The translations under genes were made by a program, and so were the position numbers. A stretch of 64,000 nucleotides of DNA from an uncultured Dehalococcoidia bacterium (GTDB lineage Bacteria; Chloroflexota; Dehalococcoidia; DSTF01; JACRBR01), in contig CAYJMG010000003.1 of the NCBI GenBank assembly GCA_964371355.1, positions 89,351 to 153,350 of the forward strand, read 5' to 3'. This document shows, in pieces, positions 17,040 to 33,354 of the stretch. Every line of letters starts with the position of its first letter. The first letter of the stretch is position 1. The notes under the pieces were generated by a model. That model was given only the letters and a program-made list of their open reading frames with translations, had not been told where the DNA came from and ran no database searches.

Positions 17040-18323
17040 ATGAGCGTGCGATACGTGGCGGCGGGTTTGGCGGGGGCGGCGGTTGTCGCGTTCGCGCTTG
17101 GGTTCGCGTGCACGCGGGCGCTGGACGACGACGGCGGCACTGCTACAACGCCGACGGCCATGGCGATCGAGTCGCCGACGGCGGAGCCGGCCGCAACGCC
17201 GACCTTGGCGAGCGGGGTCGCGCTCGAAGTGAAGATCGGCCAGCTCATCATGGCCGGCCTGGACGGCACAACGCCTGAGGAAGCGGCCGAGCTGGTACGC
17301 ACCCATCACATCGGCAACGCCGTGCTGCTGGGGGACAACGCCGTGTCGCCGGAGCAGGTGCTTGCGCTGACGTCCGGGCTGCAGGCGATGGCGCGCGACG
17401 CGAACGGCCTGGGCATGCTGATCGCCGTCGACCAAGAGGGCGGGCGCGTGATCCGTCTCGACCCCCCGTTCACGCAGATGCCGGCGGCCGCCGTGATCGG
17501 CTGCATAGGGGAGACGGATCTGGCGCGGCTGGCGGCGCTCATCATGGGGCGCGAGATGCTGGCCGCGGGCATCAACGTCGACCTGGCGCCGGACGCCGAC
17601 GTACTCACGAACCCGGAAAACAACGTCATCGGCGACCGCGCGTACGGTACGACGCCCGACGCAGTGACGCCGATGGTGCTGGCGGCGATCGAGGGACTGC
17701 ACCAGGCGGGTGTGCTGGCGGTGGCGAAGCACTTCCCCGGCCACGGCTCCACCGGCGGCGACTCGCACGATGGGCGCGTCGTCGTCGAGAGGACGCTGCA
17801 GGAGCTGGAGGAGACGGACCTGCCACCGTTCCGCGCCGCCGCCGAGGTCACCGACATGATGATGACGTCGAACGTCGACTACGCGGCCCTCGACCCGGCG
17901 GCCCTCGAGCCGGCGGCCCTCGACCCAGCGGGGCTGCCGGCGTCGCTGTCGGGACTGACCATCGGCTACCTGCGCGAAGGGCTGGGATTCGACGGCGTGG
18001 TGATCACCGACTCGCTGGAGATGGGCGCGGTGTCGAATCGCTGGGACACGGGCGAGGCCGCCGTGCGCGCGATCGAGGCGGGCGCGGACATGGTGCTGTA
18101 CGCCGATCCAGAGGGCGGGATCGCGGCCGCGCAGGCGTTGCTCGTGGCGGTGCGTGCTGGCCGGATCAGCGAGTCCCGCATCGACGAGTCTCTGGCGCGC
18201 GTGAGCACGCTGAAAGAGCGCGCGCTGGCGCAGCCTCTGCCGGGGCTGGAGGTCGTGGGCGCAGCCGACCACGCCGCGTTCGCCGCGGTGCTTGCACAGG
18301 CGCAAACGGACGCTGGGTGTTGA
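17040..18323 (+). CDS. Glycoside hydrolase family 3 beta-N-acetylhexosaminidase (NagZ-like) lipoprotein
   Basis: GH3 motifs KHFPGHG, IGQLIMAG and LIAVDQEGG. Signal peptide with a lipobox-like LGFAC. ATG at 17040 with an AAAGGA RBS. Confidence 0.85.
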   Translation: MSVRYVAAGLAGAAVVAFALGFACTRALDDDGGTATTPTAMAIESPTAEPAATPTLASGVALEVKIGQLIMAGLDGTTPEEAAELVRTHHIGNAVLLGDNAVSPEQVLALTSGLQAMARDANGLGMLIAVDQEGGRVIRLDPPFTQMPAAAVIGCIGETDLARLAALIMGREMLAAGINVDLAPDADVLTNPENNVIGDRAYGTTPDAVTPMVLAAIEGLHQAGVLAVAKHFPGHGSTGGDSHDGRVVVERTLQELEETDLPPFRAAAEVTDMMMTSNVDYAALDPAALEPAALDPAGLPASLSGLTIGYLREGLGFDGVVITDSLEMGAVSNRWDTGEAAVRAIEAGADMVLYADPEGGIAAAQALLVAVRAGRISESRIDESLARVSTLKERALAQPLPGLEVVGAADHAAFAAVLAQAQTDAGC

Positions 18324-18382: not shown

Positions 18383-18457
18383 TGGAGCCGGCGATGGGAT
18401 TCGAACCCGTGACCTGCTGTTTACGAAACAGCTGCTCTACCGCTGAGCTACGCCGGC
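18383..18457 (-). tRNA. tRNA-Thr (anticodon CGU), CCA encoded
   Basis: Hand-folded cloverleaf: 7-bp acceptor stem GCCGGCG/CGCCGGC, D-arm GCTC/GAGC, anticodon stem GCTGT/ACAGC with loop TTCGTAA (CGT), T-loop TTCGAAT, discriminator T, then CCA. There is one C-A mismatch in the T-stem. Confidence 0.85.
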
Positions 18458-19628: not shown

Positions 19629-20291
19629 GTGGCCTATTATTCGACCGTGCGGTCGAAGAGCGAACCGAGTGTTCTAGAGAAAGTCTCGGCTGGCGAGGAA
19701 CAGTCGTTCATCGAAGCTGCCCGGCGGGCGCAGATCGTGCGCTGCGCGATCGACACGATCGCCGAACTGGGGTACGCGCGCGCTTCGCTGGTCGAGATCG
19801 CGAAACGCGCGAAGGTCAGCAAGAGCGTCATCTCGTACTACTTCGCCGGCAAGGACGAGCTGATTCTGCAGGTCGTCGAACACGTCTACACGGCCGGAGC
19901 GGAGTTCATGCTGCCACGGATCGTGGCGCATACCCCATCCCGCGCCCAACTCCGGGCGTACATCCTGGCCAACGTCGCCTACATGATGGAATACCCGAAG
20001 AACGTGCAGGCGATGGTCGAGATCGTGTGGGGCTTCCGTGACGAGCGGGGCCAATCGCGGCTGGACGAGCATGGGCACGACCCGATCCAGGCGGCGGTGG
20101 AGGAGATGCTTCGGGCAGGACAGGAGGCGGGCGAGTTTCGCGCGTTTTCCCAGGACAGCATGGCCTTCGCGATCAGGGCGGCCATCGACATGCTGCCGCC
20201 GTTGGCCTCCGCGCACCCGGAGACGGACCTGGCGCGCTACGGCGAAGAGTTGGCGGATCTGTTCGACATCGCGACGCGAAGCGGGATCTAG
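19629..20291 (+). CDS. TetR/AcrR family transcriptional regulator
   Basis: N-terminal HTH (IAELGYARASLVEIAKRAKVSKSVISYYFAGKDEL). GTG start at 19629; the exact start is uncertain. Confidence 0.8.
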   Translation: MAYYSTVRSKSEPSVLEKVSAGEEQSFIEAARRAQIVRCAIDTIAELGYARASLVEIAKRAKVSKSVISYYFAGKDELILQVVEHVYTAGAEFMLPRIVAHTPSRAQLRAYILANVAYMMEYPKNVQAMVEIVWGFRDERGQSRLDEHGHDPIQAAVEEMLRAGQEAGEFRAFSQDSMAFAIRAAIDMLPPLASAHPETDLARYGEELADLFDIATRSGI

Positions 20292-20309
20292 CAAACAAGG
20301 AGCACGGAA

Positions 20310-21164
20310 ATGCGAGAGTTCAAGGGCAAGGTAGCCGTCGTCACCGGCGCGGCGAGCGGCATCGGGCGAGGGCTGGCGGAGAGGTTCGCCACCGAGGGCA
20401 TGCGCGTGGTTATGGCCGACGTCGAGCAGCCGGCCCTGGACGCCGCGGCACGCGAGCTGGCTGCGAGCGGCGCCGAAGTGCTGGCGGTGCGGACCGACGT
20501 CTCGAAGGAAGCCGATATGCAGGCGCTGGCCGCGAAGACGATGGAGCGGTTCGGCGCGGTGCACGTCGTGTGCAACAACGCGGGCGTGGGCGGCGGCGGG
20601 CCGCAAGCGTCGTGGGAGTGCCCTCTGGTCGACTGGGAGTGGACGCTGGGTGTGAATCTCTGGGGCGTGATTCACGGGGTGCGGGCATTCGTCCCGCTGA
20701 TGCTCAAGGGCGGCGACGAAGGGCACATCGTGAACACGGCGTCAGTCGCCGGGCTTATCGCCGGTGCGGGCGGGCCGGCGTACACGACGACCAAGTTCGG
20801 TGTGGTGGGGTATTCGGAGGCGCTGCACCACGAGCTGGCGTACGCCTCGAGCGGGAAGATCAACGTGTCGGTGCTGTGTCCGGCGCTGACGAACACGCGG
20901 ATCATCGAGTCGGGGCGCAACCACCCGGCGGGGCCGCAGCCCCAGCCCGCGCCGGGAACACCCGAGCACGCGATGCTGGACATGATCAAGGGCATCTTCG
21001 CGGGCGGGATGGCGCCGTCCGAGACCGCGGCGATCGTGCTGGACGCGATCTGCAACGAGCGCTTCTACGTACTCACACACCCCGAGCACAACCCGCGGCT
21101 CCAGGCGCGCGCCGAGGCGATCGTCGGCGGCGGGGAGCCGCCCTTGCTCACGCCGATGCCGTAG
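20310..21164 (+). CDS. SDR family oxidoreductase
   Basis: VTGAASGIGRGLA, NNAG, YTTTK. AAGGAG RBS. Confidence 0.85.
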   Translation: MREFKGKVAVVTGAASGIGRGLAERFATEGMRVVMADVEQPALDAAARELAASGAEVLAVRTDVSKEADMQALAAKTMERFGAVHVVCNNAGVGGGGPQASWECPLVDWEWTLGVNLWGVIHGVRAFVPLMLKGGDEGHIVNTASVAGLIAGAGGPAYTTTKFGVVGYSEALHHELAYASSGKINVSVLCPALTNTRIIESGRNHPAGPQPQPAPGTPEHAMLDMIKGIFAGGMAPSETAAIVLDAICNERFYVLTHPEHNPRLQARAEAIVGGGEPPLLTPMP

Positions 21165-21534
21165 CGAGCTTGGCGATGCGGCCGACGTCGGGGTGAAAGA
21201 GGACGAGCTGGCGCGCCTCCACCCAGGCGTTGCTCGGCACCGGGATGCGCGCAGCGTACGCCGCGGCTTCGGCCGCGTCCCTGCAATCGATGATGTAGTA
21301 GCCGCCGATCGCCTCTTTCGTTTCGGCGAAAGGGCCGTCGCTGCCTATGACTGCTCCTGCCTTCACGCGCAGCGGCCGTGCCATCTCGACCGGCATGAGC
21401 GCGCCGCCGGAGACGTACACACCCGTTTGGCGCAGATCCGCCTCGAGCGCCTCGTGCTCGGGCAGGAGGGACGGCTTGTCGGTGGGCGCAAGCGGCACGG
21501 CGGGGTCGTACTGGATGAGGAACATGTACAGCAT
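21148..21534 (-). CDS. YciI-like protein
   Basis: 129 aa from the ATG at 21534 (AGGAGA RBS), with a YCII-related fold signature. The track ORF carries an unsupported 75-codon N-terminal extension. Confidence 0.65.
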   Translation of the reverse strand: MLYMFLIQYDPAVPLAPTDKPSLLPEHEALEADLRQTGVYVSGGALMPVEMARPLRVKAGAVIGSDGPFAETKEAIGGYYIIDCRDAAEAAAYAARIPVPSNAWVEARQLVLFHPDVGRIAKLATASA

Positions 21535-21873
21535 GGTCGGTCTCCTGTGGGCAATGTCGCGAGCGTTCGCCCGCGCACTATAGCGACGGCGGCCGGAGCC
21601 GCGATCGACGGCGTTGCAGAAAACGCAGCCAGGGGGCACGCTGCCGATGCGATAACCCACGCCGGGGCGCGAAAGGTGGCCGACAGTTGGGTGCAAAACG
21701 CGCAGAGACTGCCCGGAAGGAGCGAGAGGCGCTTCACGCGCGGCTGGCGCTGGATCCAACGCTACCCGAGAAGATTGACCGGGCGCTCACCGGCTACGCG
21801 GAGGCGCGAGCACGAGGTGAGCTACACAAGGATCGAGCCGCGGACGCCAGCGGCCGGACCGCGACGACCAACT

Positions 21874-23163
21874 TTAGCGCATGGCCACCGGCACGTACTC
21901 GCGGCCGCGGTTGCCGGTGTAGACCTGGCGGGGGCGGGCGATCTTCTGCTCGCCGTCGGTGATCATCTCGCGCCACTGGGCCACCCAGCCGGCCGTCCGC
22001 GGGATGGCGAAGAGCACCGGGAACATCTCGACCGGGAAGCCCAACGCCTGGTAGATGATGCCGCTGTAGAAGTCGACGTTCGGGTACAGCTTCCGCGAGA
22101 TGAAGTACTCGTCCTCCAGGGCGATCTTCTCCAGCTCGAGCGCGATATCGAGCATGGGGTTGCGGCCGACGAGGTCGAACACCTCGTACGCCGTGCGCTT
22201 GATGATCTTCGCGCGCGGGTCATAGTTCTTGTACACCCGGTGGCCGAAGCCCATGAGCCGGCCCTCGCCTGCCTTCACGCGCTTGATGAAGTCGGGGATG
22301 TTCTTGATGTCCCCGATGTGGTCCAGCATGCGGAGCACCTCTTCGTTGGCGCCCCCGTGCAGCGGGCCGTAGAGAGCGGCACAGGCCGCGGCCGTGGCCG
22401 AGAACGGATCGGGGCGGCTGCTGCCGACGGCGCGCATGGCGTTGGTGCTGCAGTTCTGCTCGTGGTCGGCATGGAGGATGAAGAGGACGTCGATGGCACG
22501 CTCGAGGACAGGGTCGGGCTTGTAGTCCTTTTCGGCGACGTGACGCCAGAGCATGCTGCAAAAGTTAGCCGGGAAGGATAGATCGTTGTCCGGATAGATG
22601 ATCGGGAGACCACGGGTGCGCCTGTACGCGTACGCGGCGATCGTCGGCATCTTGGCGATGAGGCGCCAGGTCTGCAACTCGCGTGATGCAGGATCGTCCA
22701 CGTCCTTGCCGTCCTTGTAGTACGTGGAGAGTGCCGCGACCGTCCCGACGAGCATGCCCATCGGGTGAGAGTCGTAGTTGAAGCCGTCGACGAACTTCTT
22801 GGTGTTCTCGTGCACCATCGTGTGATAGGTGATGTTGTGCACCCACCCGGCAAGCTCCGTCGTGGTTGGCAGCTCCCCATACAGGAGCAGGTAGGCGGTC
22901 TCCAGGTAGGTGCTCTGCTCGGCGAGTTGCTCGATGGGGTAACCGCGATACTCCAGGATGCCCTGGTCGCCGTCGATGTAGGTGATGGCGCTACGGCAGG
23001 AGGCGGTGTTGGTGAAGGCCGGGTCGTAGGTCATCAACCCGAAATCGCCGTCGTCGACGCGGATCTGGCGGAAGTCCATCGCGCGGACGGTACCGTCGGT
23101 GATCGGGACCTCGTACTGCTTTCCGGTGCGGTTATCGGTGACGGTCAGCGTGTCCTTGGGCAT
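21874..23163 (-). CDS. gltA: Citrate synthase
   Basis: 429 aa with full-length citrate synthase signatures (GFGHRVYKNYDPRA, the catalytic His/Asp region). Confidence 0.95.
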   Translation of the reverse strand: MPKDTLTVTDNRTGKQYEVPITDGTVRAMDFRQIRVDDGDFGLMTYDPAFTNTASCRSAITYIDGDQGILEYRGYPIEQLAEQSTYLETAYLLLYGELPTTTELAGWVHNITYHTMVHENTKKFVDGFNYDSHPMGMLVGTVAALSTYYKDGKDVDDPASRELQTWRLIAKMPTIAAYAYRRTRGLPIIYPDNDLSFPANFCSMLWRHVAEKDYKPDPVLERAIDVLFILHADHEQNCSTNAMRAVGSSRPDPFSATAAACAALYGPLHGGANEEVLRMLDHIGDIKNIPDFIKRVKAGEGRLMGFGHRVYKNYDPRAKIIKRTAYEVFDLVGRNPMLDIALELEKIALEDEYFISRKLYPNVDFYSGIIYQALGFPVEMFPVLFAIPRTAGWVAQWREMITDGEQKIARPRQVYTGNRGREYVPVAMR

Positions 23164-23422
23164 GGTGGAGTCCTCCAGGCGGGCCGGGGGGCGCGCGTTG
23201 CTGCGTCTGGGGGTGGTAGCACCCGGGCGTCCCGCGGGGGCCGTCGCGGCTGCTGCTCCGGCGTGAGCATAGCAGGAACGCGCCGAACGCTCTCCCTAAT
23301 CAATGTCACGGATGCGCATAAGCGGCTGCCCGATGCAGGGGCAAACCCCCGGTTCCGATACTCACGTGGTTTCGCGCGCGGGCGGGCCGGATGGGGGAAA
23401 CCGCGCAAGCTTCGGGGGCCGG

Positions 23423-26400
23423 ATGAATCACCAGCAGACAGGCTCGCAGGGAATGCAGGGCCTGGCAGCCGATGCCGCTCTGCGCGCGGTCGTCGAGCGC
23501 GTGTCCGGATCTTCAGGCGGCGAGTTCTACCGGCGCCTGGCCGCCGAGCTGGGCCACGTGTTCCGCGCATCCTACGCGGGAGTTGGCGAACTGTCCCTCG
23601 ATGGCGAGCGGGTGTCGCTGCTGGGCGCGTGGTCGCGCGACCCGACGAGTACCCCCGGCGACTTCGCCGTCGCCGCGACGCCCGCCGAGCCCGTCGCACA
23701 GGGCGAGATACGGCTGCACCGCGAGCGCGTCCGGCGCGAGTTCCCCGCCGACCAGCGGCTACAGCGGCTCTTCGCCGAGAGCTACCTGGGTGTCCCCATC
23801 ACCGACGGGCGGGGCGACGTCCTGGGCCTGATCGAGTTGATCGCCGACACCCCGGTGCGCGATGCGGACGCGGCCACCGCGATCGTCATGGCAATGGCCG
23901 AGCGGACGGCGACCGAGATGGAGCGCGACCAGGCAGAGGCCGCGCTGCGCGACAGCGAGATGCGGTACCGGGCGCTCATCGAGGACTCGTTTCACCTGGT
24001 GGCCGAAGTCGTCGACGAGCGCTTCATCTACGCCAGCTCGGGCTACACCGATACGCTGGGCTACCCGCCGGAAGACCTGCTGGGCGGCAGCGTCTTCGAG
24101 CTGATCCACGAAGAGGATCGCAAGGCCGCAGCCGGCGAGCTGCGGGCGATGCTTTCGCAGCGGCGCGCGGCCCACTTCACCGTGCGTATGAGGCACGAGC
24201 AGGGTGCATGGCGATGGATCGAATGCACGGCGCGCGCGTTCCGCACAAGCGGCGGCGAGTTCCGGACGACGCTGTTCTCGCGCGACGTTACCGACCGCGT
24301 GAAGGCGGAAGCGGCGCTCCGTGAGAGCGAGGAGTTGTTCCGCTCGCTCATCAAGGACCTGCGCGTGGGCGTGGCGCTGCACGACGCCGACGCGCGTGTG
24401 TTGGTCTGCAACGACGCGGCGCTCGCGCTCCTTGGACTGACCGAGGAGGAGGTCCTGGGCAAGACGTCGTACGACGACTCGTGGCGGCCGACGCGCGAGG
24501 ACGGCACGATCATCCCCCCGAACGAGCGCCCGGTGCCGCTCGCCATTGCGACGGGCGCGCCGGTGCGCGACATCGTGTACGGCGTACATCGCCCAGCCAC
24601 GGGCGAGCAAGCCTGGGTGTTGGCGAGCGCGGAGCCGCAGTTTGATGCGGACGGCAGGGTGCACCGCGTCATCTGCTCGTTGAACGACATCACGGCGAGG
24701 CTCATGGCGGAGCAGGAGCTGCGGGCGAGCGAGGGGCGGTTCCGTTTCCTGGCTGAGAACAGCATGGACGTCATCTCCCGCTACGACGCGGACGGACGCT
24801 GTGTCTGGATGTCCCCGTCAGTCACGCCACTAACGGGCTACACGCCGGAGGAGGTCGTCGGGCACTCGCTGGCCGAGATCTTTGCGAACAACGACGACGG
24901 CCTGCTCGCCGGCGCGCTGGCCAACGTGCAGGAAGGCATCGAGTCGTTCCGCACGACCTTCCAGGTCCGGCACAAGGATGGGCACCAGGTCTGGATGGAG
25001 GCGACGAACAAAGTCGTGCGCGACCCCGAGACGGCGGACGTCATCGAGATCCAGACGTCGGCGCGTGACATCTCCGGCCGGAAGCGGGCGGAAGACGAGT
25101 TGCGGGAGAGCGAGGCTCGCTTCCGGCTGCTGGCCGAGAACTCGACCGACATCATCGCGCGATACACGCCCGGAGGCAGGTGCATCTGGGTCTCGCCGTC
25201 CATCAGGAGCGTCACGGGGCGCGACCCCGAGGCCGTCATCGGCCAGATCCCGGGCCACCAAATCCACCCGGATGACCGCGAAGGCGCCGTCGAGGCAATG
25301 CGCGCCCTGGCCGCGGGCGAGGATCAGCGGACGTACACCTTCCGGTTCCAGCACGTCGACGGCCACTACATCTGGCTGGAAGCGCACGCCCGCGCCATCC
25401 GCGACGCCGGCGGGGCCCTGACCGAAGTCCAGACGTCGTCACGCGATGTCACGGCGCGTATGAACGCGGAGGACGAGCTGCGGGAGAGCGAGACGCGCTT
25501 CCGCCTGCTGGCGGAGAACGCTACTGACATGATCTCCCGCTTCGCCCTGGACGGAACGCGTCTCTGGGTTTCGCCATCCGTGCAGGCGATCACCGGCTAC
25601 TCACAGGAAGAGACGATGCAATCGGGCCCCGTCGACAACGTCCACCCTGACGACGTTGCGGCTCTCCAGACGTCGTTCCGGGCGATGGTCGACGGTGAAG
25701 CCTCGCGACGCACGACCTTCCGCTTCCGGCACAGGGACGGGCGTTACCTCTGGCTCGAAGCCGACGGCCGGGCGATCCGCGACGAGGACGGACGGGTGAT
25801 CGAGATCCAGTCGTCCGCCCGCGACGTGACGGCACGCAAGCAGGCCGAAGAGGAACTGCGCGAGAGCGAGGGTCGCTTCCGGCTGCTGGCCCACAACTCC
25901 ACGGATATCATCGGGCGCTTCTCGCCGGACGGCAGGTGTGTCTGGATCTCACCCTCGGCACAGCCGATCACCGGATACACCCCCGAGGAGATCGTGGCGG
26001 CGGCGCCCGCGAAGTTCGTGCACCCCGACGACGCGCTCGAAGTGTGGAACGCGTTCAACGGGATGGTGGAAAGCGGGGCTACGCAGCGCGCCACATTCCG
26101 CTTCCGTCACAAGGACGGCCACTACATCTGGCTGGAGGCGAACGGCCGCGCGGTCCGCGACGACACAGGCCAGGTGGTCGAAATCCACTCCGCGACCCGC
26201 GACGTAACGGCGCGGATGGAGGCGGAGGACGACCTGCGCGAGAGCGAGGGGCGGTTCAGGCTGCTGGCGGAGAACGCGACCGACATGATCGGGCGGTTCA
26301 CGCCGGACGGCGTGTGCCTCTGGGTGTCGCCATCGGTCACCGCCGTCATGGGCTACGAGCCGGCGGAACTCATCGGCCAGAATCTCCGAGAGGGGATCCA

Positions 26401-29400
26401 CCCGGACGACCTGGCGGCGATCTCGCGTGGCCCGGACTGGGAACGGCCGGACTCGGTCACGTCCCTGATGCGCTATCGGCACAAGGCCGGGCACTACATC
26501 TGGATCGAATCGACCAGCAATGCGGTGCGCAACCCGCAGACCGGCGAGGTCATCGAGATCCACAACACGTCGCGCGACGTCACGGCCAGGAAGGCAGCGG
26601 AGGACGATCTGCGCGAGAGCGAGGCCCGCTTCCGCCTGCTCGCGGAAAACGCCACCGACGTCATCGGCCGCTACGCGATGGATGGCCGCTGCCTCTGGGT
26701 ATCGCCCTCGGTCACGCAGGTCCTGGGCTATGCGCCCGACGAAATCGTGGGGCAGGAACCATTCGGCCACATCCACCGCGACGACCTGCAGGACAACATG
26801 CCGTTCCGGCCGGGCGCGACGGATCTGCCGGACCAGTGGCGTACGACACTGCGCTACCGCCACAAGGACGGGCGCTGGGTGTGGCTGGAATCGACGAACC
26901 GCCCGGCCCGCGACCCGCAGACAGGCGCGATGCTCGAAGTGCACTCGACCTCGCGCGATGTCACCGCACGCATCGAGGCCGAGGAGCAGCTCCGCGCCAG
27001 CGAATCGCGGTATCGATCGCTCAGCGAATCCTCCCCGCTCGGCGTGTACGAAACAACAGCCGACGGCGACGCGACGTACTTCAACGAGCGCGCGATCCGG
27101 ATGGCCGGCATCGGCCTCGACGAGCTGAAAGGCTGGGGCTGGAGCCGTCACGTGCACCCCGACGACCGGCCGATCGTGGAAGCGGCGTGGCGTGCTGCGA
27201 CGCAGGACGGCCGTGAGTGCACCATCGAGTACCGCCTCCAGACGCCGCGCGGCATCATCTGGGTGTCCTCGCACGCCCTCCCCATCCGGCTCCCGGACGG
27301 CACTGTCGAGAAGTACGTCGGCACCATCGACAACATCACCGAACGGCGGGAGGCCCAGGAGGCAGTGCGGCGCAGCGAGCAGCTCTTCCGCGCCACGCTG
27401 GAATCGACCGCCGACGGCATCATCGTCACGCGGCCCCTTGGCGAGCTGATGTACTGGAACAACCGCGCGGCGGAGATGCTCGCGATCCCGCAGACGGTGC
27501 TGGACACCCACAGTGTGCAGGCCTTCGGGCGATACATCATCGAGAATGCCCGGGAGCCGGAGGCGCTGGTGATGGCGTTCTCCTCGCTTCCCTCCGACGA
27601 GCCCGTGCAAGCAGGCACCTGGACCGCGCGCGACGGCCGGATGTTCGAGGCCTTCGCGCACCCGCTGCACGACCCTTCGGGCGACCTACTGCGCGTGTGG
27701 AGCATCCGCGAGGTGACCGAGAAACACCAGTCGGAAATGGCGCTGCGCCAGAGCGAGGACCGGTTCCGCTCGCTGGCCGAGCACACGACGGACCTCGTCC
27801 TTGGTATCTGCGGGCCCGGCGTTATCGACTACGCGAGCCCGAACTGGTCCTCGGCAATGGGCTACAACCCCGAGGTCATGATCGGGCGGAACGCGCTCGA
27901 CTTCGTGCACCCTGACGACCTCCCGTACACCCTCGAAGAGTTCGAGCGCGCGGCGGAGGGCGACCGTGCCGTCTGCACGATGCTGCGGGCACGTCATGGG
28001 CAGACCGGCGAATGGCGCTGGTGCGAGCTGACGGCGAACTTCTACACCTCGGACATGGGCGAACAGCGCGCCGTCGTCACCGCCCGCGACGTCACCAGCC
28101 GAAAACAGGCCGAAGACGCGCTGCGGGAGAGCGAGGAGCGCCTGCGGACGGTCGTGAACAGCGTCCCCCTGGTGCTTGTCGCAGTCGACCGGGACGAGAC
28201 GGTCGTGCTCGCGGAGGGCCAGGGCCTTGGCCTGCTCGGCACTCCGACCCGGCCGCTGGTGGGCAGGTCGATCGCGGAGGAGCTGGAGAACCACCCGCAG
28301 GTGCTCGCCGACATGCGGCGCGCGCTCGCCGGTGACGAAGTCTCCACCACGACCGTGTTCGGACGCATCGTGTTCGAAGCGCACTTCCGCCCGATCTTCG
28401 ATGAACACGGCCAGCCCAACGGCATGATCGGCGTGGCATACGACATCTCGGCGCGCGTCGAGGCAGAGCGCATGTTGCGGGACAGCGAGGAGACGGCGCG
28501 CGCCCTGCTGAACGCGCCCACCGACGGCGCCGTGCTGGTCGACCGCGAGGGCACGATCCTGGCCATGAACGAGACGGCGGAACGGCGCTTCCGCGAGCAC
28601 GCCTCGAAGCAGGGTGTAGGGCCGCGCGACTTCATCGGCACGTGCGTCTTCGATATCTTCCCGCCCGACCTCCGCGCCCAGCGGCGGGCACGCAACGACG
28701 AGGTGTTCCGCAACGGCCAGCGCCGCCACTTCGAGGACGAGCGCGACGGCATCTGGACCGACGTGACCGTCGACCCAATCCGCGACGCTGACGGCAACAT
28801 CGTGCGCCTGGCGATCTTCTCCCGCGACGTCACCGACCGCAAGCGCGACGAGGCCGCCCTGCGCAAGCGCTCGCGCGAACTCGAGGCACTGAATGACTAT
28901 CTCGAGAAGACATCGGCCGAGCTTGAGCGCTCCCAGGACGAGCTGCGCGAGGCGAGCGAGCAGCTCGCGGAGCTGCTGGACGCAGAACAGGCGCGGTCGA
29001 AGACCGACACACTGACCGGAGCGCTGAACCATGGGACCATCTCCGAGGCCATCTCGGAGGCGATCGCGGCGGATGTTGCGCTCGCCGTAGCCATGGTCGA
29101 TGTGGACGGCATGAAGGCCGTCAACGACACCTACGGCCACCAGGCGGGCGACCAGGTCCTCCTCGCGGTCGTGCAGGCCATCACCCGCCCAGGCGCCATC
29201 ACCGGCCGCTACGGAGGCGACGAATTCCTGGTGGCGCTGCTGAACGCCGACCGCATCGAAGCCGAAGCCTACAGGGACGCTGTGGGGGCGGCGCTGCAAG
29301 GGGCCGGCGTGGTGGACCCCGAGAGCGGGGCCCGCGTCCCCGTCGTCGCCAGCGTGGGCATCGCCATGTACCCTGAGGACGCGGACACGCTAAAGGCGCT

Positions 29401-30664
29401 CATCGAGCGCGCGGACGAGCGCATGTACGAGGAGAAGAAGGCCCGCAAGGCCAACGGCACCGGCCTTTCGCCGTCGCGCACCATCGGCGACGAGCGCGCG
29501 GCCCGCATGGTGGGCGAGCTGGTGCCGCTGCTGACCTCCAGCGGCACGCTGGACGAGAAGCTGAGACTGGTGGCCCACCGGCTTTCCGTCGGCGCTGGCT
29601 ACGCCGGCGTGAACTTCGACGTGCTGGGCGAGCACGACGGCCGCACCACCACCGTCAACCAGAACGCCTTCACCAAGGCGCCCGACGAGGTGATCGAGGC
29701 ATGGAACCGCCACCAGCGCTCGGGCGTGAACGGTCGCATCAGCGACCTGCTGCGCCAGACGCGCCGGGCGGTGATCATCGATGACATCGCCGCCAGCCAG
29801 CTCGTGACGGAGGAGCAGAAGAAGCTGCTGCTGTCGATCGGCATCGTCTCGGGCATCGTGGTGCCGCTGTTCGACGGCGACGCGATGGTTGCCACCATGT
29901 CGGTCGGGAGCAAGGACGTATCAGGGTTCTCCCAGAGCGACATGCAGTTCCTGACGGCGGTCGCCGGCCAGGTATCGGCCATCATCCGCATGGCTCGCCT
30001 GGTGGAAGACCTGCGGCGGGCAACGGGCCGGCTGGAGGAGGCGCGCGACGAGACGGTCATGTTCCTGGCCGAAGCGGCCGAGGCCCACACACAGAGCGGC
30101 GGCCGGCACTTCCTGGCCACGCGCGCCATCGCCGAGGCGATCGCCACGGAAATGGGGTTCGACGAGGCGAGCGTGCGGGAGCTGGGCCAGGCGGCGGCTC
30201 TGCACGACATCGGCAAGATCCACCTGCCCGACGCCCTGCTGTCCAGCCCGGAGCCACTATCGCCACGGCTCGGCATCGATCCCGCCGGGCAGGCGTGGGA
30301 GACGCTGCAGCAGCACTGTGCGCGCGGGCGCGAGTTCCTGGCCCGCGGCAAGGGATTCGAGCTGGCGGCGATGGCGGCGTACATGCACCACGAACGCTGG
30401 GACGGCGCCGGATACCCGCAGGGCATCGCCGGCGACGCCATCCCCATCGAGGCGTCCATCATCGCGGTGGCCGACAGCCTCGACGCGATGATGACCGAGA
30501 GCCCCTACCAGCCCGGCCGGTCGCTGGACGAGGCGGTCGCCGAAATCCTCGCCTGTCGCGGGACGCAGTTCCGCCCGGACGTGGTCGACGCGTTGTCCCG
30601 CCTGTACGAGCGGCGCGCGCTGCACGGCGTCTGGGCTCAGGACGAGGGCGCGGAGGCGGCCTGA
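23423..30664 (+). CDS. Giant multi-PAS c-di-GMP signalling protein: GAF, 13 PAS, GGDEF, GAF, HD-GYP (about 2413 aa)
   Basis: A single uninterrupted ORF. 13 PAS units each begin with a (E/D)xLRxSE(x)RFRxL linker. Intact GGDEF (RYGGDEFLV) with upstream DVDGMKAVNDTYGHQAGD. HD-GYP (ALHDIGKI ... HHERWDGAGYP). The ATG at 23423 is taken as start; the track's 23303 start and an ATG at 23453 are alternatives. Confidence 0.85.
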   Translation: MNHQQTGSQGMQGLAADAALRAVVERVSGSSGGEFYRRLAAELGHVFRASYAGVGELSLDGERVSLLGAWSRDPTSTPGDFAVAATPAEPVAQGEIRLHRERVRREFPADQRLQRLFAESYLGVPITDGRGDVLGLIELIADTPVRDADAATAIVMAMAERTATEMERDQAEAALRDSEMRYRALIEDSFHLVAEVVDERFIYASSGYTDTLGYPPEDLLGGSVFELIHEEDRKAAAGELRAMLSQRRAAHFTVRMRHEQGAWRWIECTARAFRTSGGEFRTTLFSRDVTDRVKAEAALRESEELFRSLIKDLRVGVALHDADARVLVCNDAALALLGLTEEEVLGKTSYDDSWRPTREDGTIIPPNERPVPLAIATGAPVRDIVYGVHRPATGEQAWVLASAEPQFDADGRVHRVICSLNDITARLMAEQELRASEGRFRFLAENSMDVISRYDADGRCVWMSPSVTPLTGYTPEEVVGHSLAEIFANNDDGLLAGALANVQEGIESFRTTFQVRHKDGHQVWMEATNKVVRDPETADVIEIQTSARDISGRKRAEDELRESEARFRLLAENSTDIIARYTPGGRCIWVSPSIRSVTGRDPEAVIGQIPGHQIHPDDREGAVEAMRALAAGEDQRTYTFRFQHVDGHYIWLEAHARAIRDAGGALTEVQTSSRDVTARMNAEDELRESETRFRLLAENATDMISRFALDGTRLWVSPSVQAITGYSQEETMQSGPVDNVHPDDVAALQTSFRAMVDGEASRRTTFRFRHRDGRYLWLEADGRAIRDEDGRVIEIQSSARDVTARKQAEEELRESEGRFRLLAHNSTDIIGRFSPDGRCVWISPSAQPITGYTPEEIVAAAPAKFVHPDDALEVWNAFNGMVESGATQRATFRFRHKDGHYIWLEANGRAVRDDTGQVVEIHSATRDVTARMEAEDDLRESEGRFRLLAENATDMIGRFTPDGVCLWVSPSVTAVMGYEPAELIGQNLREGIHPDDLAAISRGPDWERPDSVTSLMRYRHKAGHYIWIESTSNAVRNPQTGEVIEIHNTSRDVTARKAAEDDLRESEARFRLLAENATDVIGRYAMDGRCLWVSPSVTQVLGYAPDEIVGQEPFGHIHRDDLQDNMPFRPGATDLPDQWRTTLRYRHKDGRWVWLESTNRPARDPQTGAMLEVHSTSRDVTARIEAEEQLRASESRYRSLSESSPLGVYETTADGDATYFNERAIRMAGIGLDELKGWGWSRHVHPDDRPIVEAAWRAATQDGRECTIEYRLQTPRGIIWVSSHALPIRLPDGTVEKYVGTIDNITERREAQEAVRRSEQLFRATLESTADGIIVTRPLGELMYWNNRAAEMLAIPQTVLDTHSVQAFGRYIIENAREPEALVMAFSSLPSDEPVQAGTWTARDGRMFEAFAHPLHDPSGDLLRVWSIREVTEKHQSEMALRQSEDRFRSLAEHTTDLVLGICGPGVIDYASPNWSSAMGYNPEVMIGRNALDFVHPDDLPYTLEEFERAAEGDRAVCTMLRARHGQTGEWRWCELTANFYTSDMGEQRAVVTARDVTSRKQAEDALRESEERLRTVVNSVPLVLVAVDRDETVVLAEGQGLGLLGTPTRPLVGRSIAEELENHPQVLADMRRALAGDEVSTTTVFGRIVFEAHFRPIFDEHGQPNGMIGVAYDISARVEAERMLRDSEETARALLNAPTDGAVLVDREGTILAMNETAERRFREHASKQGVGPRDFIGTCVFDIFPPDLRAQRRARNDEVFRNGQRRHFEDERDGIWTDVTVDPIRDADGNIVRLAIFSRDVTDRKRDEAALRKRSRELEALNDYLEKTSAELERSQDELREASEQLAELLDAEQARSKTDTLTGALNHGTISEAISEAIAADVALAVAMVDVDGMKAVNDTYGHQAGDQVLLAVVQAITRPGAITGRYGGDEFLVALLNADRIEAEAYRDAVGAALQGAGVVDPESGARVPVVASVGIAMYPEDADTLKALIERADERMYEEKKARKANGTGLSPSRTIGDERAARMVGELVPLLTSSGTLDEKLRLVAHRLSVGAGYAGVNFDVLGEHDGRTTTVNQNAFTKAPDEVIEAWNRHQRSGVNGRISDLLRQTRRAVIIDDIAASQLVTEEQKKLLLSIGIVSGIVVPLFDGDAMVATMSVGSKDVSGFSQSDMQFLTAVAGQVSAIIRMARLVEDLRRATGRLEEARDETVMFLAEAAEAHTQSGGRHFLATRAIAEAIATEMGFDEASVRELGQAAALHDIGKIHLPDALLSSPEPLSPRLGIDPAGQAWETLQQHCARGREFLARGKGFELAAMAAYMHHERWDGAGYPQGIAGDAIPIEASIIAVADSLDAMMTESPYQPGRSLDEAVAEILACRGTQFRPDVVDALSRLYERRALHGVWAQDEGAEAA
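24712..26985 (+). repeat. Six tandem 375-381-bp direct repeat units (PAS-domain-encoding) inside the giant signalling gene
   Basis: Unit boundaries at 24712, 25093, 25474, 25849, 26224 and 26605. They all begin ga(g/a)ga(c/g)ga..tgcg.gagagcgag...cg.ttc.g.ctgct.gc.ga.aac. The encoded PAS units share RFRHKDGHYIWLE-type cores. Confidence 0.75.
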
Positions 30665-31935
30665 CGGGCCTCGGCCGGCTCCGGCGCGTCACTGCCGTGG
30701 CGGGTGAGGTTCACGGCCGCCCACACGGCGAACGTGACCCAGCCCCACACGAAGAACCACCACCCGTTGTCGCGCAGCCACTCCGTACCGGGGCCATCGA
30801 TGCCCGGGAAGATCAGGCCACCGCCGAGGAAGGCGATGATGACGTAAGAGGCCGTGTGGGCGGCAACGAGAGACGCCACGAGGAGACGCTGTCCGCTGAG
30901 GAGACCGAAGGGGACGATCCAGAGATAGTGGTAGGGCGCGCCGTCGTTCACCATCACGAAGAGCACCGCCAACACGCCGGCGATGGACGAATACAGCGGA
31001 GCGCGGCGGTAGATGAGCCAGGCCGCCGCGGCCAGCGTCGCCGCATATGCGGGCCACTCGCCGTGGTCGATCTCGAAGCGCAGCACTGTCGCCGATCCCG
31101 GCACGAATCCGAGGAAGCGGTCGATGATCAGCGGCGGCCCACCCAGCGTCGGGAACGGTGAGTAGTAGCCCTCCACGCCGTCGTACACCCGCAGCGGCGT
31201 GCTGCCGAACGCGAGCACGTACGCCAGGACCGCGCCCCCGACGACGGCGCCGGCCACGATGAGGTACTCCACCCTGCGTTCCGCGCGCAGCCTCGCCAAC
31301 AGCAACGGAATCAGGAACGCGGGCCACAGCTTCTGCAGGATGCCGAGCGCCAGCAATCCGGCCGACTGCAGGCGACTGCCCCCGGCGTTCGCCTCGGACA
31401 GGACGAAGACCGCGGAGACGGCGAAAAAGACCGAGATGACGTCGAACTGACCGTGGTAGATGGTCGCGAGGACGGGGAACGGGCACACGGCGTAAAGCAG
31501 TCCCGTGCGCACGCCCTCGGCCCTCCCCCACAGACGCGACGCCGCATGCGCGAGCAGCAACGCCGTACCCGCGTCGGCCAACGCCTGCGGGACACGGACC
31601 GCCGTGAAGAACGGGATGGGTGTCGCGTCGGCTATGAGCTTGCACACCGCCAGGATGTACATCTGGAACGGCAGGTACGGGTGCGGGAAGGGGCCGAAGG
31701 CGTAGATGTCGCGCCCGTGCAGGACCTCGTTCGCGGTTTTCTCGTAGTTGTTGATGTCGGTCAGCCAGAGGCCTTCGGGCTCGCGGTACACCAGCAGCGG
31801 CACGAACCGCACGATCAACGCGACCGCGGCGACCACCGCGAACTCGCGGCCCGGCGGCACGTCCGGCCGCAAGAACAGCAGCCACACGAAGGCGATGCTC
31901 GCCATCACGATCCACATGAACATGAAGAGAATCAC
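30637..31935 (-). CDS. Polytopic membrane protein, GT87/DUF2029-like (candidate lipid-linked-sugar-dependent glycosyltransferase)
   Basis: 432 aa with about 11 transmembrane helices and a DUF2029-like arrangement. The 3' end overlaps the giant gene's 3' end by 28 bp (convergent). Confidence 0.5.
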   Translation of the reverse strand: MILFMFMWIVMASIAFVWLLFLRPDVPPGREFAVVAAVALIVRFVPLLVYREPEGLWLTDINNYEKTANEVLHGRDIYAFGPFPHPYLPFQMYILAVCKLIADATPIPFFTAVRVPQALADAGTALLLAHAASRLWGRAEGVRTGLLYAVCPFPVLATIYHGQFDVISVFFAVSAVFVLSEANAGGSRLQSAGLLALGILQKLWPAFLIPLLLARLRAERRVEYLIVAGAVVGGAVLAYVLAFGSTPLRVYDGVEGYYSPFPTLGGPPLIIDRFLGFVPGSATVLRFEIDHGEWPAYAATLAAAAWLIYRRAPLYSSIAGVLAVLFVMVNDGAPYHYLWIVPFGLLSGQRLLVASLVAAHTASYVIIAFLGGGLIFPGIDGPGTEWLRDNGWWFFVWGWVTFAVWAAVNLTRHGSDAPEPAEARQAASAPSS

Positions 31936-31983
31936 GGCGGCAGTGTAGGTGACCGAACGCCGGTGTCGGCCCGATGCTTGACG

Positions 31984-33354
31984 TCAGCGCGCCCTGCGGT
32001 GCGCGCGCTGCTTGCGCCAGATCGAGAATCTCCGGCGCAGGCCGAAGCGCGCCTCGTAGTACGAGCGCGAGACGAACCAGTCGAGCGAATGCAGCGCGAT
32101 CGGCAGGCGCTGCTCGTTGCGGCGCACGGGCGAGCTTGACGCGCCGGTGCAGTAGTCGATGAGCGGCGCCAGCGTGCGCTCCCACGTGTACTCCTCGCGG
32201 ACCGCTTCGACGTTGCGGCGGCAGGCCGCGCGGTAGCCCGCGTCGCCCGCCAGCCGGTCGAGCGCGACCGTGAGCGCATCGAGGTCGCCCTCGGGTACCG
32301 CCGCGCCGAGCCCGCGCGCCTCGACCATCTCAGCCACCATGTCGCCCTGCGTGCAGACCAGCGGCAGGCCGGCCCAGAAGCAGTCCAGGTAGCGCACGCG
32401 GAACGAGAACCGCGTCTCCAGGCTGTCGTAGTACGTACAGACGGCGACGTCCGACTCCAACAGGTACTGCTGGGTGTCCTCGTTGTTCGCCCACGTGAAG
32501 TTGAAGAAGACGTGCGTATCCAGGATTCCCAGCTCGCGGCAAAGGTCGAGCGCACGCTGGGTCGTGCCGCCGCCCAGGCCCTGCAGCGTCTTCGCGCCGT
32601 AACTGTCCGGGTGCTCGGTGCCCATGAAGAACAACCGCATGTTCGGATGCCGGTCCTTCAGGCGAGCGACGGCACGGAGCAGCAGGCCCATGTCGTACCA
32701 GTCGACGATGATGCCGTTCCAGATCATCACGAAGTCGCCGCGCCCGATGCCCGGCCACACGCCGCGCAGCAGCGGCACGCCCGCCACGGGCGGCGCCGGC
32801 CGGATGCCGATGGGCGCGATGCGGATCAGACCCTCCAGCGTGGGATCGCTGTCGAACGCGCGGGGCGTAATGAGCCCGGCCGTGCCCATGATGCCTGCAA
32901 TGAGGTCGCGCTGCCGCACGTTCGAGCAGAGGATTGTGTCGGACGCGGCGATCTGCGTGATGAGATCGCGGCGCTTCATGTCGATCCAGGCGCGGCGGTG
33001 CGACTCGCCAGGGTCGCGCTTCGTCATCTCCACCCACTCCGTGATGAATGGAGTGAACAGGTCGAGCACGAGGCGCGTGTTCCCCGCGAACGGCAGCATC
33101 TTCAGTGGGAAGCGCGTGCTGATGACGATGTCGTGCTCGCGCGTCAGCCGCCCGATGTTCGCGCCGTCGTGGCGGGTGAAGGCGAAGGGCACGGTCGCCG
33201 GGTCGAGGTCGGCCGGCGTCGTGCGCGGGATGGCGAGCGTCACCTGCGCGCCCGGGACACGCTCCTGCAGCACCCGCGCCATGTGGTAGCTGCGGATGCC
33301 GCCGCTGGCCATCGTGCCGCCCACCGTCGTGTGGCCCAGGACGAGGATCTTCAT
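31984..33354 (-). CDS. GT4-like (GT-B fold) glycosyltransferase, paralog 1 of 3
   Basis: 456 aa with a C-terminal GT4-type Rossmann layout (IWNGIIVDWYD..., ADVAVCTYYDSLETRFSFRVRYLDCFWAGLPLVCTQGD, final YTWERT). The EX7E motif is degenerate. ATGA overlap with paralog 2. Confidence 0.6.
   Translation of the reverse strand: MKILVLGHTTVGGTMASGGIRSYHMARVLQERVPGAQVTLAIPRTTPADLDPATVPFAFTRHDGANIGRLTREHDIVISTRFPLKMLPFAGNTRLVLDLFTPFITEWVEMTKRDPGESHRRAWIDMKRRDLITQIAASDTILCSNVRQRDLIAGIMGTAGLITPRAFDSDPTLEGLIRIAPIGIRPAPPVAGVPLLRGVWPGIGRGDFVMIWNGIIVDWYDMGLLLRAVARLKDRHPNMRLFFMGTEHPDSYGAKTLQGLGGGTTQRALDLCRELGILDTHVFFNFTWANNEDTQQYLLESDVAVCTYYDSLETRFSFRVRYLDCFWAGLPLVCTQGDMVAEMVEARGLGAAVPEGDLDALTVALDRLAGDAGYRAACRRNVEAVREEYTWERTLAPLIDYCTGASSSPVRRNEQRLPIALHSLDWFVSRSYYEARFGLRRRFSIWRKQRAHRRAR

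What the first reader, a model, noticed from the sequence alone, without database searches (positions are those of the whole stretch)
24712..26985. Six tandem ~378-bp near-identical repeat units (PAS cassettes) inside the giant gene
The DNA repeats with period 375-381 bp, with unit starts at 24712, 25093, 25474, 25849, 26224 and 26605. The same about 60-nt linker sequence (gaggacgagctgcgggagagcgag.cgcttccg.ctgctggc.gagaac...) is recognisable at each start. This is recent intragenic amplification of a PAS module. It matters biologically because it allows expansion and contraction of sensor number by recombination. It matters technically because such repeats collapse in short-read assemblies.
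Basis: seen in the sequence. Interest (0 to 1): 0.5.

Follow-up and report, generated by a model that had tools for sequence, protein, structure and literature searches.

The report
Old, diverged PAS-domain repeats in sensor gene
The 378-bp periodicity is real, but it is six anciently duplicated and now well-diverged PAS sensor domains (about 62% DNA identity) within a 13-PAS cyclic-di-GMP signalling protein of a Dehalococcoidia bacterium, which is an ordinary architecture and not a recent or unstable repeat.

Summary
The periodic signal is real. A 42-nt linker motif occurs exactly six times, at 24719, 25100, 25478, 25856, 26234 and 26609, with none expected by chance, and self-similarity peaks at an offset of 378 nt. 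The units are not near-identical: pairwise identity is 56-69% for DNA and 43-58% for protein, and Tandem Repeats Finder reports no array. They are PAS units 3-8 of 13 in a 2453-aa protein with the architecture GAF, 13 PAS, GGDEF, GAF, HD-GYP. The six are each other's closest relatives, so intragenic duplication is the likely origin, but it is ancient. Where two units share an amino acid they share the codon no more often than codon usage predicts (522 observed, 512 expected). In syntenic orthologues the units group by position, not by species. The longest exact run shared by two units is 23 nt, and the identical protein was recovered on at least 23 metagenome contigs, so neither assembly collapse nor ongoing recombination is expected. 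Syntenic or domain-matched relatives carry 2-6 copies of this PAS class, so whole units were gained and lost over long times. The conserved "linker" encodes a continuous helix joining adjacent PAS cores, as in FixL. This is an ordinary multi-PAS signalling protein of low interest.

The parts
23303..30664 (+). Giant ORF of 2453 aa. The database copy P0001 starts at Met11, nt 23333, and is 2443 aa. Architecture: GAF, 13 PAS, GGDEF, GAF, HD-GYP.
   Evidence: ORF list, translation, Pfam, NCBIfam, 100% match to P0001.
23522..23911 (+). N-terminal GAF domain (aa 74-203).
   Evidence: Pfam PF01590, E 8.5e-7, 30 bits against a cutoff of 22.4.
23945..24718 (+). PAS units U1 (23945-24316) and U2 (24317-24718). 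These are old, distinct PAS lineages and not part of the six-unit class.
   Evidence: Unit HMM and alignment. They are 22-35% identical in protein to U3-U8 and nearer to PAS domains of other proteins than to any unit in the same protein.
24719..25099 (+). PAS unit U3, the first of the six related units (127 aa).
   Evidence: Motif hit at 24719. It is 43-49% identical in protein and 57-62% in DNA to U4-U8. Orthologues are 03_3, 02_3 and 06_3.
25100..25477 (+). PAS unit U4 (126 aa).
   Evidence: Motif hit at 25100. Its orthologue is unit 4 of P0002, with 100% bootstrap support and 76% protein identity.
25478..25855 (+). PAS unit U5 (126 aa).
   Evidence: Motif hit at 25478. The U5/U6 clade, with units from P0002, P0003 and P0006, has 100% bootstrap support.
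25856..26233 (+). PAS unit U6 (126 aa). With U5 it forms the closest pair (57% protein, 69% DNA identity).
   Evidence: It pairs with unit 4 of P0003 at 91% bootstrap support. AlphaFold2 model of U6-U7 has mean pLDDT 87.
26234..26608 (+). PAS unit U7 (125 aa).
   Evidence: Motif hit at 26234. The clade with 03_5, 02_6 and 06_5 has 81% support.
26609..26989 (+). PAS unit U8 (127 aa). No orthologue was found in any retrieved relative; it is 58% identical to U7.
26990..28858 (+). PAS units U9-U13 (starts 26990, 27365, 27743, 28121, 28475). They are diverged PAS lineages, and all or most of them are conserved one-to-one in the relatives examined (P0006 lacks a U10 equivalent, P0009 a U11 equivalent).
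25826..25897 (+). Example of the conserved 'linker' (…RDVTARKQAEEELRESEGRFRLLAH…). It encodes one continuous alpha-helix running from the last strand of one PAS core to the first strand of the next. The same element starts every unit.
   Evidence: The AlphaFold2 model has helices at residues 4-25 and 130-152. Linker columns are 72% identical in protein and 74% in DNA, against 42% and 58% in the core.
29000..29449 (+). GGDEF diguanylate-cyclase domain (aa 1900-2049). The motif RYGGDEF is intact, and RPGA stands at the position of the RxxD inhibitory site.
   Evidence: Pfam PF00990, E 1.8e-27. Motifs read in the translation.
29621..29986 (+). Second GAF domain (aa 2107-2228).
   Evidence: Pfam GAF and GAF_2.
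30074..30580 (+). HD-GYP domain (aa 2258-2426), with HDIGK and HHERWDGAGYP motifs.
   Evidence: Pfam HD_5 PF13487, E 5.7e-25. Motifs read in the translation.

Best explanation
The six 378-bp units are PAS domains 3-8 of a cytoplasmic 13-PAS signalling protein that is predicted both to make (GGDEF) and to break down (HD-GYP) cyclic di-GMP, in a Dehalococcoidia (Chloroflexota) bacterium.

They form one PAS subfamily that arose by in-register tandem duplication inside this gene long ago. Most of the duplications predate the split from the syntenic orthologues P0002, P0003 and P0006. Since then the units have diverged to 43-58% protein identity. All of the remaining DNA similarity (56-69%) is explained by conserved amino acids together with the strong GC3 codon bias (GC3 about 0.89).

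The best-conserved 60 nt at each unit start encodes a continuous alpha-helix that links one PAS core to the next. By analogy with FixL, DosP and PpsR, I infer that the array forms an elongated, helix-linked parallel dimer that passes ligand- or redox-dependent changes down the helices to the GGDEF/HD-GYP output (not shown here).

Paralogue divergence is concentrated in the F-alpha helix and the loop after it, on the ligand-pocket side. This fits units that have taken on different inputs (inferred).

Whole units have been gained and lost among relatives (2-6 copies of this class). The present units are too diverged to recombine readily or to confuse an assembler.
For: PAS identity: PAS_3, PAS_4, PAS and PAS_9 match with E 1e-118 to 1e-152. 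TIGR00229 gives 13 matched stretches, and its model length of 126 equals the repeat period.

Periodicity.

Divergence.

No synonymous signal: the same codon is used at 522 sites against 511.7 expected (z 0.75) among the six paralogues. Orthologous units compared with P0003 still show an excess, 593 against 533 (my sum of the rows, z about 3.9), and the neighbouring citrate synthase gives z 3.7-6.3.

Units group by position, not by species: the U4 pair has 100% support, the U5/U6 clade 100%, U6 with 03_4 91%, the U7 clade 81%, and the wider clade containing U3 87%.

Positional orthology: the order citrate synthase (-), gene (+), GT87/PMT_2 (-), GT1 (-) is conserved.

Intragenic origin: the nearest relative of each of the six units is another of the six.

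Copy-number differences, always in whole units.

Structure: the AlphaFold2 di-unit model has mean pLDDT 87, two PAS cores and a 23-residue joining helix. The best whole-model superposition is the FixL PAS-A/PAS-B dimer (TM 0.69-0.79, rmsd about 3 A), followed by DosP.

The variable region is alignment columns 61-80, with identity 0.06-0.15.
Against: Deep nodes of the unit tree are weakly supported (1.5-48%), so the order of the duplications is unresolved, as is whether U8 is a gain here or a loss elsewhere. The tree is neighbour-joining on about 126 columns.

Some PAS domains from other proteins reach 45-49% identity to the six units, only slightly below the paralogue values. Monophyly of the class was tested only against the 120 retrieved homologues.

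No ligand, cofactor, oligomeric state or enzyme activity was or could be tested. The closest solved homologue by sequence, 3mr0 (E 1e-11), gives no information on ligands. The dimeric-rod mechanism is an analogy only.
Confidence: 0.85

Rival explanations
1. One reading: a recent intragenic amplification of near-identical PAS cassettes that still expands and contracts by homologous recombination and collapses in short-read assemblies.
For: There is a regular 378-nt period and a recognisable linker at each unit start. Copy number of this PAS class differs among relatives, from 2 to 6.
Against: DNA identity is only 56-69%. TRF finds no array. Codon choice at identical residues is random (z 0.75), and dS is 0.76-1.26. 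The longest shared exact run is 23 nt, and 17 nt or less for most pairs. Units have positional orthologues in other species. The identical protein was found on at least 23 contigs. No variant above 66% identity with a different length appears among the hits.
Confidence: 0.02
2. Concerted evolution: the six units are old but are kept similar to each other by gene conversion within the array.
For: The linker region is markedly more similar (74% DNA identity) than the core (58%), and it shows a marginal codon-identity excess (216 against 198.8, z 1.96).
Against: Overall there is no codon-identity excess (z 0.75), and there is none in the core (z -0.66). Units cluster with their positional orthologues from other genomes, not with their neighbours in the same gene. 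No unit shows a clean chimeric pattern. The linker's similarity follows from 72% protein identity combined with a GC3 of 0.89.
Confidence: 0.03
3. Domain shuffling: the six units were acquired from other multi-PAS genes, or exchanged with them, rather than duplicated in place. Their similarity would then reflect membership of a widespread PAS_3 subfamily.
For: PAS domains of other Chloroflexota proteins (P0010_6, P0081_5, P0043_10) reach 45-49% identity to the six units, close to the paralogue values. There is a hint of mosaic history: U12 is 87% identical in DNA to the P0002 unit with a codon excess of z 5.7, while the N-terminal units are closer to P0003.
Against: For every one of the six units, the best hit outside its orthologues is another of the six in the same protein. 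All the units are contiguous, in frame and of the same length. The class is separated from the U11 outgroup with 100% support.
Confidence: 0.1

Closest known systems
Multi-PAS 'PAS domain S-box' signalling proteins (TIGR00229; (PAS)n-GGDEF, (PAS)n-HisKA and related architectures)
   Same: There are thirteen TIGR00229 matches, each with the DVT.RK..E..LR.SE..FR inter-domain helix. The 120 best database homologues carry 6-20 such units each. (PAS)n architectures are described as common in the literature (PMC5847659).
   Different: Nothing essential differs. Thirteen PAS units lies in the upper-middle of the range seen among the retrieved homologues. The output combination GGDEF, GAF, HD-GYP is less common than GGDEF-EAL (my own knowledge; not counted here).
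FixL tandem PAS-A/PAS-B sensor module (PDB 8js5, 8js6) and DosP (PAS-PAS-GGDEF-EAL; PDB 9cmf, 9cdr)
   Same: The predicted U6-U7 di-unit superposes on the FixL PAS-A/PAS-B dimer chains with TM 0.69-0.79 and rmsd 2.9-3.8 A, and on DosP with TM 0.52-0.58. In each case two PAS cores are joined by a helix.
   Different: Sequence identity is only 14-19%. No haem-binding signature was tested or seen. There are six to thirteen units here rather than two.
PpsR and CckA multi-PAS regulators
   Same: In these proteins alpha-helical PAS extensions mediate multi-PAS oligomerisation (PpsR, PMC3949515), and tandem PAS domains integrate distinct signals (CckA, PMC4853435). This is the functional model proposed here.
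   Different: The output domains differ (DNA binding, histidine kinase), and no sequence relationship beyond the PAS fold was tested.
Intragenic near-identical tandem repeats of surface or contingency proteins
   Same: In-frame, head-to-tail repetition of a domain-sized unit.
   Different: Such repeats are typically more than 90% identical in DNA and vary between strains (my own knowledge). Here identity is 56-69%, synonymous sites are randomised, and no variation was seen across at least 23 contigs.

Membership tests
PAS domain (Pfam PAS clan; TIGR00229 sensory box) | Significant match to the curated profile, above the gathering or trusted cutoff | tested here: met
   PAS_3 scores 494.5 bits (cutoff 25.6), with PAS_4, PAS and PAS_9 also matching. 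TIGR00229 scores 788.8 bits with 13 stretches. Unit U6 alone scores 79.7 bits against a cutoff of 22.9.
PAS domain (Pfam PAS clan; TIGR00229 sensory box) | PAS fold: five-stranded antiparallel beta-sheet flanked by short helices | tested here: met
   The AlphaFold2 model (mean pLDDT 87) shows two strands, three helices and three strands in each unit. Top Foldseek hits are ARNT, HIF, FixL and DosP PAS domains, with E down to 2e-18. This is a prediction, not an experimental structure.
PAS domain (Pfam PAS clan; TIGR00229 sensory box) | Binding of a ligand or cofactor, or another sensory role | not testable with these tools
   The closest solved homologue by sequence, 3mr0, gives no ligand information.
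Recent or unstable near-identical intragenic tandem repeat | Unit-to-unit nucleotide identity near 100% | tested here: not met
   Identity is 56.3-68.5%, and TRF reports no array.
Recent or unstable near-identical intragenic tandem repeat | Shared synonymous codons beyond what codon usage predicts | tested here: not met
   522 observed against 511.7 expected, z 0.75.
Recent or unstable near-identical intragenic tandem repeat | Long exact repeats that can support recombination or confuse an assembler | tested here: not met
   The longest shared exact run is 23 nt (U4/U6); the others are 17 nt or less.
Recent or unstable near-identical intragenic tandem repeat | Copy-number variation among close strains | tested here: not met
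   The identical 2443-aa product was found on at least 23 contigs. The next-best database protein is only 64-66% identical. The test is limited to what the databases hold.
Array under concerted evolution | Paralogous units in one genome cluster together rather than with positional orthologues | tested here: not met
   Units cluster by position across genomes.
GGDEF diguanylate cyclase | Profile match and intact GG[DE]EF active-site motif | tested here: met
   PF00990 scores 96.5 bits and TIGR00254 98.4 bits. RYGGDEF is read in the translation.
GGDEF diguanylate cyclase | RxxD allosteric inhibitory site five residues upstream of GGDEF (present in many members but not required) | tested here: not met
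   The sequence there is RPGAITGRYGGDEF, with RPGA in place of RxxD. Placement of the site relies on my knowledge of PleD.
GGDEF diguanylate cyclase | Cyclase activity | not testable with these tools
   Needs an enzyme assay.
HD-GYP c-di-GMP phosphodiesterase | HD_5 profile match plus HD and GYP motifs | tested here: met
   PF13487 scores 88.4 bits. HDIGK and HHERWDGAGYP are read in the translation.
HD-GYP c-di-GMP phosphodiesterase | Phosphodiesterase activity and metal centre | not testable with these tools
   Needs biochemistry.

The most novel reading that the evidence does not exclude
The number of copies of this one PAS class (2-6 among relatives, always whole helix-plus-core units) may be an evolvable setting of the sensor. 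On this reading each copy has re-specialised its F-alpha/pocket region for a different input, and the protein acts as a combinatorial integrator whose input count is adjusted by in-register gain and loss of units at the conserved helix. Alternatively, the array length itself could tune coupling to the GGDEF/HD-GYP output. The gene also evolves much faster (64-66% identity) than its neighbour citrate synthase (90-94%).
Probability: 0.2. Interest if true: 0.4.

Novelty: new member of a known kind. Interest (0 to 1): 0.15.

Why it matters
The main value is as a correction. A regular DNA period inside a high-GC gene can come entirely from conserved protein domains and codon bias, and it should not be read as a recent or unstable repeat. 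The locus poses no special assembly risk.

Biologically it adds one more uncharacterised multi-PAS c-di-GMP enzyme from uncultured Dehalococcoidia. The modest point of interest is a clean natural series of relatives (three of them shown to be syntenic) carrying 2-6 copies of one PAS class. This series could be used to ask how tandem PAS arrays gain and lose inputs.

Tried and rejected
- Tandem Repeats Finder on 20000-32000 at minimum score 30 found no 378-nt array, because identity is below its detection range. Periodicity was therefore shown by autocorrelation, repeat families and motif search.
- Regex segmentation of the orthologues was unreliable and was replaced by an HMM built from the 13 units.
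- The Biopython bootstrap run timed out and was redone with numpy distances.
- I searched for chimeric units as footprints of unequal crossing-over, comparing 02_5, 06_4 and 03_4 with U5/U6, 02_6, 03_5 and 06_5 with U7/U8, and 03_3 with U3/U4. No clean breakpoint appeared. 02_5 and 06_4 are even mosaics of U5 and U6 states, as expected for a pre-duplication or equidistant relative.
- The sequence search of the PDB for a homologue that would indicate a ligand returned only 3mr0 and ARNT/HIF PAS-B domains. An earlier query was out of frame.
- The Henry & Crosson review is not held in the library. Literature searches gave only general multi-PAS references.
- The Rfam and tRNA scans of the window found nothing related to the repeat.
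- ORFs on the opposite strand that overlap the array (for example 25949-27670, minus strand) were treated as high-GC artefacts, because the plus-strand frame has very strong domain matches. They were not tested further.


Full report

Partly. The region lies inside one long ORF, 23303-30664 on the plus strand, of 2453 aa. Ungapped self-comparison of 24712-26985 peaks at an offset of 378 nt, with a match fraction of 0.493. The next peaks are at 756 and 1134. The background for in-frame offsets is 0.314 +/- 0.021.

The repeat finder returns families spaced 372-402 nt apart. The periodicity, the number of units and the recognisable linker are therefore all confirmed.

"Near-identical" is not confirmed. 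A codon-aware alignment gives 57-69% for DNA and 43-58% for protein. Tandem Repeats Finder reports no array with this period.

The periodicity also does not stop at the six units. The linker signature LRxSE recurs 14 times and delimits 13 units between 23945 and 28858. The seven other units are only 16-36% identical in protein to the six.

**2. What is it?**

Pfam finds PAS_3, PAS_4, PAS and PAS_9 with E-values of 1e-118 to 1e-152. It also finds a GGDEF domain (aa 1900-2049), a GAF domain (aa 2107-2228), an HD-GYP-type HD_5 domain (aa 2258-2426) and an N-terminal GAF domain (aa 74-203). NCBIfam TIGR00229, "PAS domain S-box", matches 13 times. Its model length of 126 residues equals the 378-nt period.

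- The GGDEF motif is intact (RYGGDEF).
- RPGA stands where many cyclases carry the RxxD inhibitory site.
- The HD-GYP signatures HDIGK and HHERWDGAGYP are present (all read; the motif definitions are from my own knowledge).

The identical protein is in the databases as P0001. The closest genomes are Dehalococcoidia MAGs. The gene sits between a divergent citrate synthase and convergent GT87/PMT_2 and GT1 glycosyltransferase genes.

**3. How old is the amplification?**

Four independent tests all say it is old.

- *Codon choice.* At the 911 positions where two of the six units share an amino acid other than Met or Trp, they share the codon 522 times. The gene's own codon usage predicts 511.7 (z 0.75). 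No individual pair stands out. All of the DNA similarity is therefore explained by protein conservation together with a GC3 of about 0.89.
- *Positive control for the codon test.* Orthologous units compared with the P0003 gene still show an excess, 593 against 533 (my sum of the rows, z about 3.9). The neighbouring citrate synthase gives z 3.7-6.3.
- *Substitution rates.* Nei-Gojobori dS between units is 0.76-1.26, and third-position identity is 45-56%. Composition alone predicts 40%, and unrelated PAS units of the same gene give 34-54%.
- *Unit phylogeny.* I cut eight homologous proteins (P0002-P0009, 49-66% identical over the aligned part) into units with an HMM. Synteny was checked for three of them, P0002, P0003 and P0006, and it is conserved, which makes these three positional orthologues. 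In a neighbour-joining tree with 200 bootstraps, units group by position and not by genome:
  - U4 with unit 4 of P0002, 100% support
  - a U5/U6 clade with units from P0002, P0003 and P0006, 100% support
  - U6 with unit 4 of P0003, 91% support
  - U7 with units from P0003, P0002 and P0006, 81% support
  - a wider clade containing U3, its counterparts in P0003, P0002 and P0006, and units from P0004, P0005 and P0008, 87% support

Most of the duplications therefore predate the divergence of these lineages, and there is no concerted evolution. U8 has no orthologue among the retrieved relatives. Deep nodes are poorly supported, so the order of events and the gain-or-loss status of U8 remain open.

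**4. Did the six arise inside this gene?**

Probably yes. I extracted 1324 PAS units from the 120 best homologues. For each of U3-U8, the nearest relative outside its own orthologues is another of the six in the same protein (50-57% identity). The best domains from other proteins reach 37-49%. U1, U2 and U9-U13 behave the opposite way and are closer to PAS domains of other proteins. Because the margin is small, I keep domain shuffling as a minor rival.

**5. Expansion and contraction, recombination, and assembly**

The relatives carry 13, 11, 10, 12, 12, 9, 9, 8 and 7 PAS units in total. For the U3-U8 class the counts are 6, 4, 3, 5, 5, 3, 2, 2 and 2. All are complete units with full-length HMM matches. 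Whole units have therefore been gained and lost in register over evolutionary time. I found no chimeric unit that would mark a breakpoint.

In the present sequence the longest exact run shared by two units is 23 nt (U4/U6), and the other pairs share 17 nt or less. With 31-44% divergence as well, these are poor substrates for RecA-dependent recombination. This is an inference from general knowledge of minimal homology lengths and mismatch-repair barriers. Such runs are also far shorter than sequencing reads.

The identical product was found on at least 23 contigs. The three shown carry SPAdes-style names with 5-9x coverage, which I take to indicate short-read assemblies. No protein above 66% identity with a different length appears in the search. 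The concern about assembly collapse is not supported.

**6. How it probably works**

I built an AlphaFold2 model of U6-U7 from a 35-sequence alignment of di-units. Its mean pLDDT is 87. It shows two canonical PAS cores. The conserved "linker" (…DVTARK.AE..LRESE.RFRLLAEN…) forms a single 22-23-residue helix running from the last strand of one core to the first strand of the next.

The whole di-unit superposes best on the dimeric FixL PAS-A/PAS-B module (TM 0.69-0.79, rmsd about 3 A) and next on DosP. Helical PAS extensions are known to drive multi-PAS oligomerisation in PpsR (PMC3949515), and tandem PAS domains integrate separate cues in CckA (PMC4853435).

I therefore infer an elongated parallel dimer in which changes in individual PAS cores pass along the helices to the GGDEF, GAF and HD-GYP output, shifting the balance between synthesis and hydrolysis of c-di-GMP. 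This was not shown.

Among the six paralogues, identity is 0.72-0.86 in the helix and 0.52-0.54 in the G/H strands. It falls to 0.06-0.15 in alignment columns 61-80, which cover the F-alpha helix and the following loop on the pocket side. Within each orthologous group the same columns are better conserved. This fits units that have specialised for different inputs. No ligand could be predicted; the closest solved sequence homologue is 3mr0, E 1e-11.

**7. Comparison with known systems, and verdict**

This is a standard "PAS domain S-box" multi-sensor protein. The 120 best homologues have 6-20 PAS units each, and (PAS)n architectures are described as common (PMC5847659).

- *Membership of the PAS, GGDEF and HD-GYP families:* met at the profile, motif and predicted-fold level.
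- *Membership of "recent or unstable near-identical repeats" and of "arrays under concerted evolution":* tested and not met.

The finding is a real but ordinary feature. Its claims about age, instability and assembly are wrong.

I rate it as a new member of a known kind, of low interest. The only mildly interesting aspect is the natural series of relatives with 2-6 copies, and the fast evolution of the gene (64-66% identity) compared with its neighbour citrate synthase (90-94%).

Noticed in passing
window 23945-28858: The PAS periodicity covers 13 units, not six. U1, U2 and U9-U13 are much more diverged (16-36% protein identity to the six) and are closer to PAS domains of other proteins than to their neighbours in the gene.
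   Followed up: yes
window 23303 vs 23333: The start codon is ambiguous. The longest ORF starts at ATG 23303, but the database protein P0001 (2443 aa) starts ten codons later, at Met11 (23333).
   Followed up: no
window 30637-30664; L001 10305-10332; L084 11072-11099; L085 11459-11489: The 3' end of the giant gene overlaps the 3' end of the convergent downstream gene (GT87/PMT_2-like, minus strand) by about 28-31 nt. The overlap is conserved in the P0002 and P0003 contigs and is 79 nt in the P0006 contig.
   Followed up: partly
window 21874-23163 (-) vs L084 3463-4752 and L085 3445-4734; units U1-U13: The phylogenetic signal is mixed. The neighbouring citrate synthase is closer to the P0002 contig (94% aa) than to the P0003 contig (90%). 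The N-terminal PAS units are closer to P0003 (for example U1, 89% against 76%). U12 is unusually close to P0002 (87% DNA identity, codon-identity excess z 5.7). This may reflect a mosaic or recombinant history of the gene between lineages.
   Followed up: partly
P0004 and P0005 (units 6 of 12): These more distant homologues carry an extra U2-like PAS unit inserted in the middle of the U3-U8-class array (order 1, 2, A, A, A, 2', A, A, 10, 11, 12, 13). This suggests a segmental duplication spanning more than one unit type.
   Followed up: partly
P0006 (1727 aa) and P0009 (1450 aa): These two homologues (P0006 is syntenic; the synteny of P0009 was not checked) end after the second GAF domain and have no HD-GYP domain, so the output module also varies among relatives.
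   Followed up: no
L002 1542-2831 and L003 10305-11545: Among contigs that encode the identical giant protein, one has the citrate synthase gene split into two ORFs (258 and 159 aa). Another has a different, 71-nt shorter downstream region with other gene calls. The flanks therefore show strain-level variation or assembly errors while the repeat gene is unchanged.
   Followed up: no
window 29375-29416 (aa ~2025-2038 of the ORF): RPGA stands where many diguanylate cyclases carry the RxxD allosteric inhibitory site, upstream of RYGGDEF. If the domain is active, product inhibition through this site is unlikely.
   Followed up: partly
window 18383-18457 (-): This is the only RNA gene detected in the window: tRNA-Thr (CGU), found by ARAGORN and by Rfam RF00005 at 68.6 bits.
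   Followed up: no
window 17883-17931 and 58028-58086: There are two short tandem repeats, 15 nt x 3.3 copies (91% matches) and 27 nt x 2.2 copies (82% matches). These are the only TRF hits with score of 60 or more in the window.
   Followed up: no
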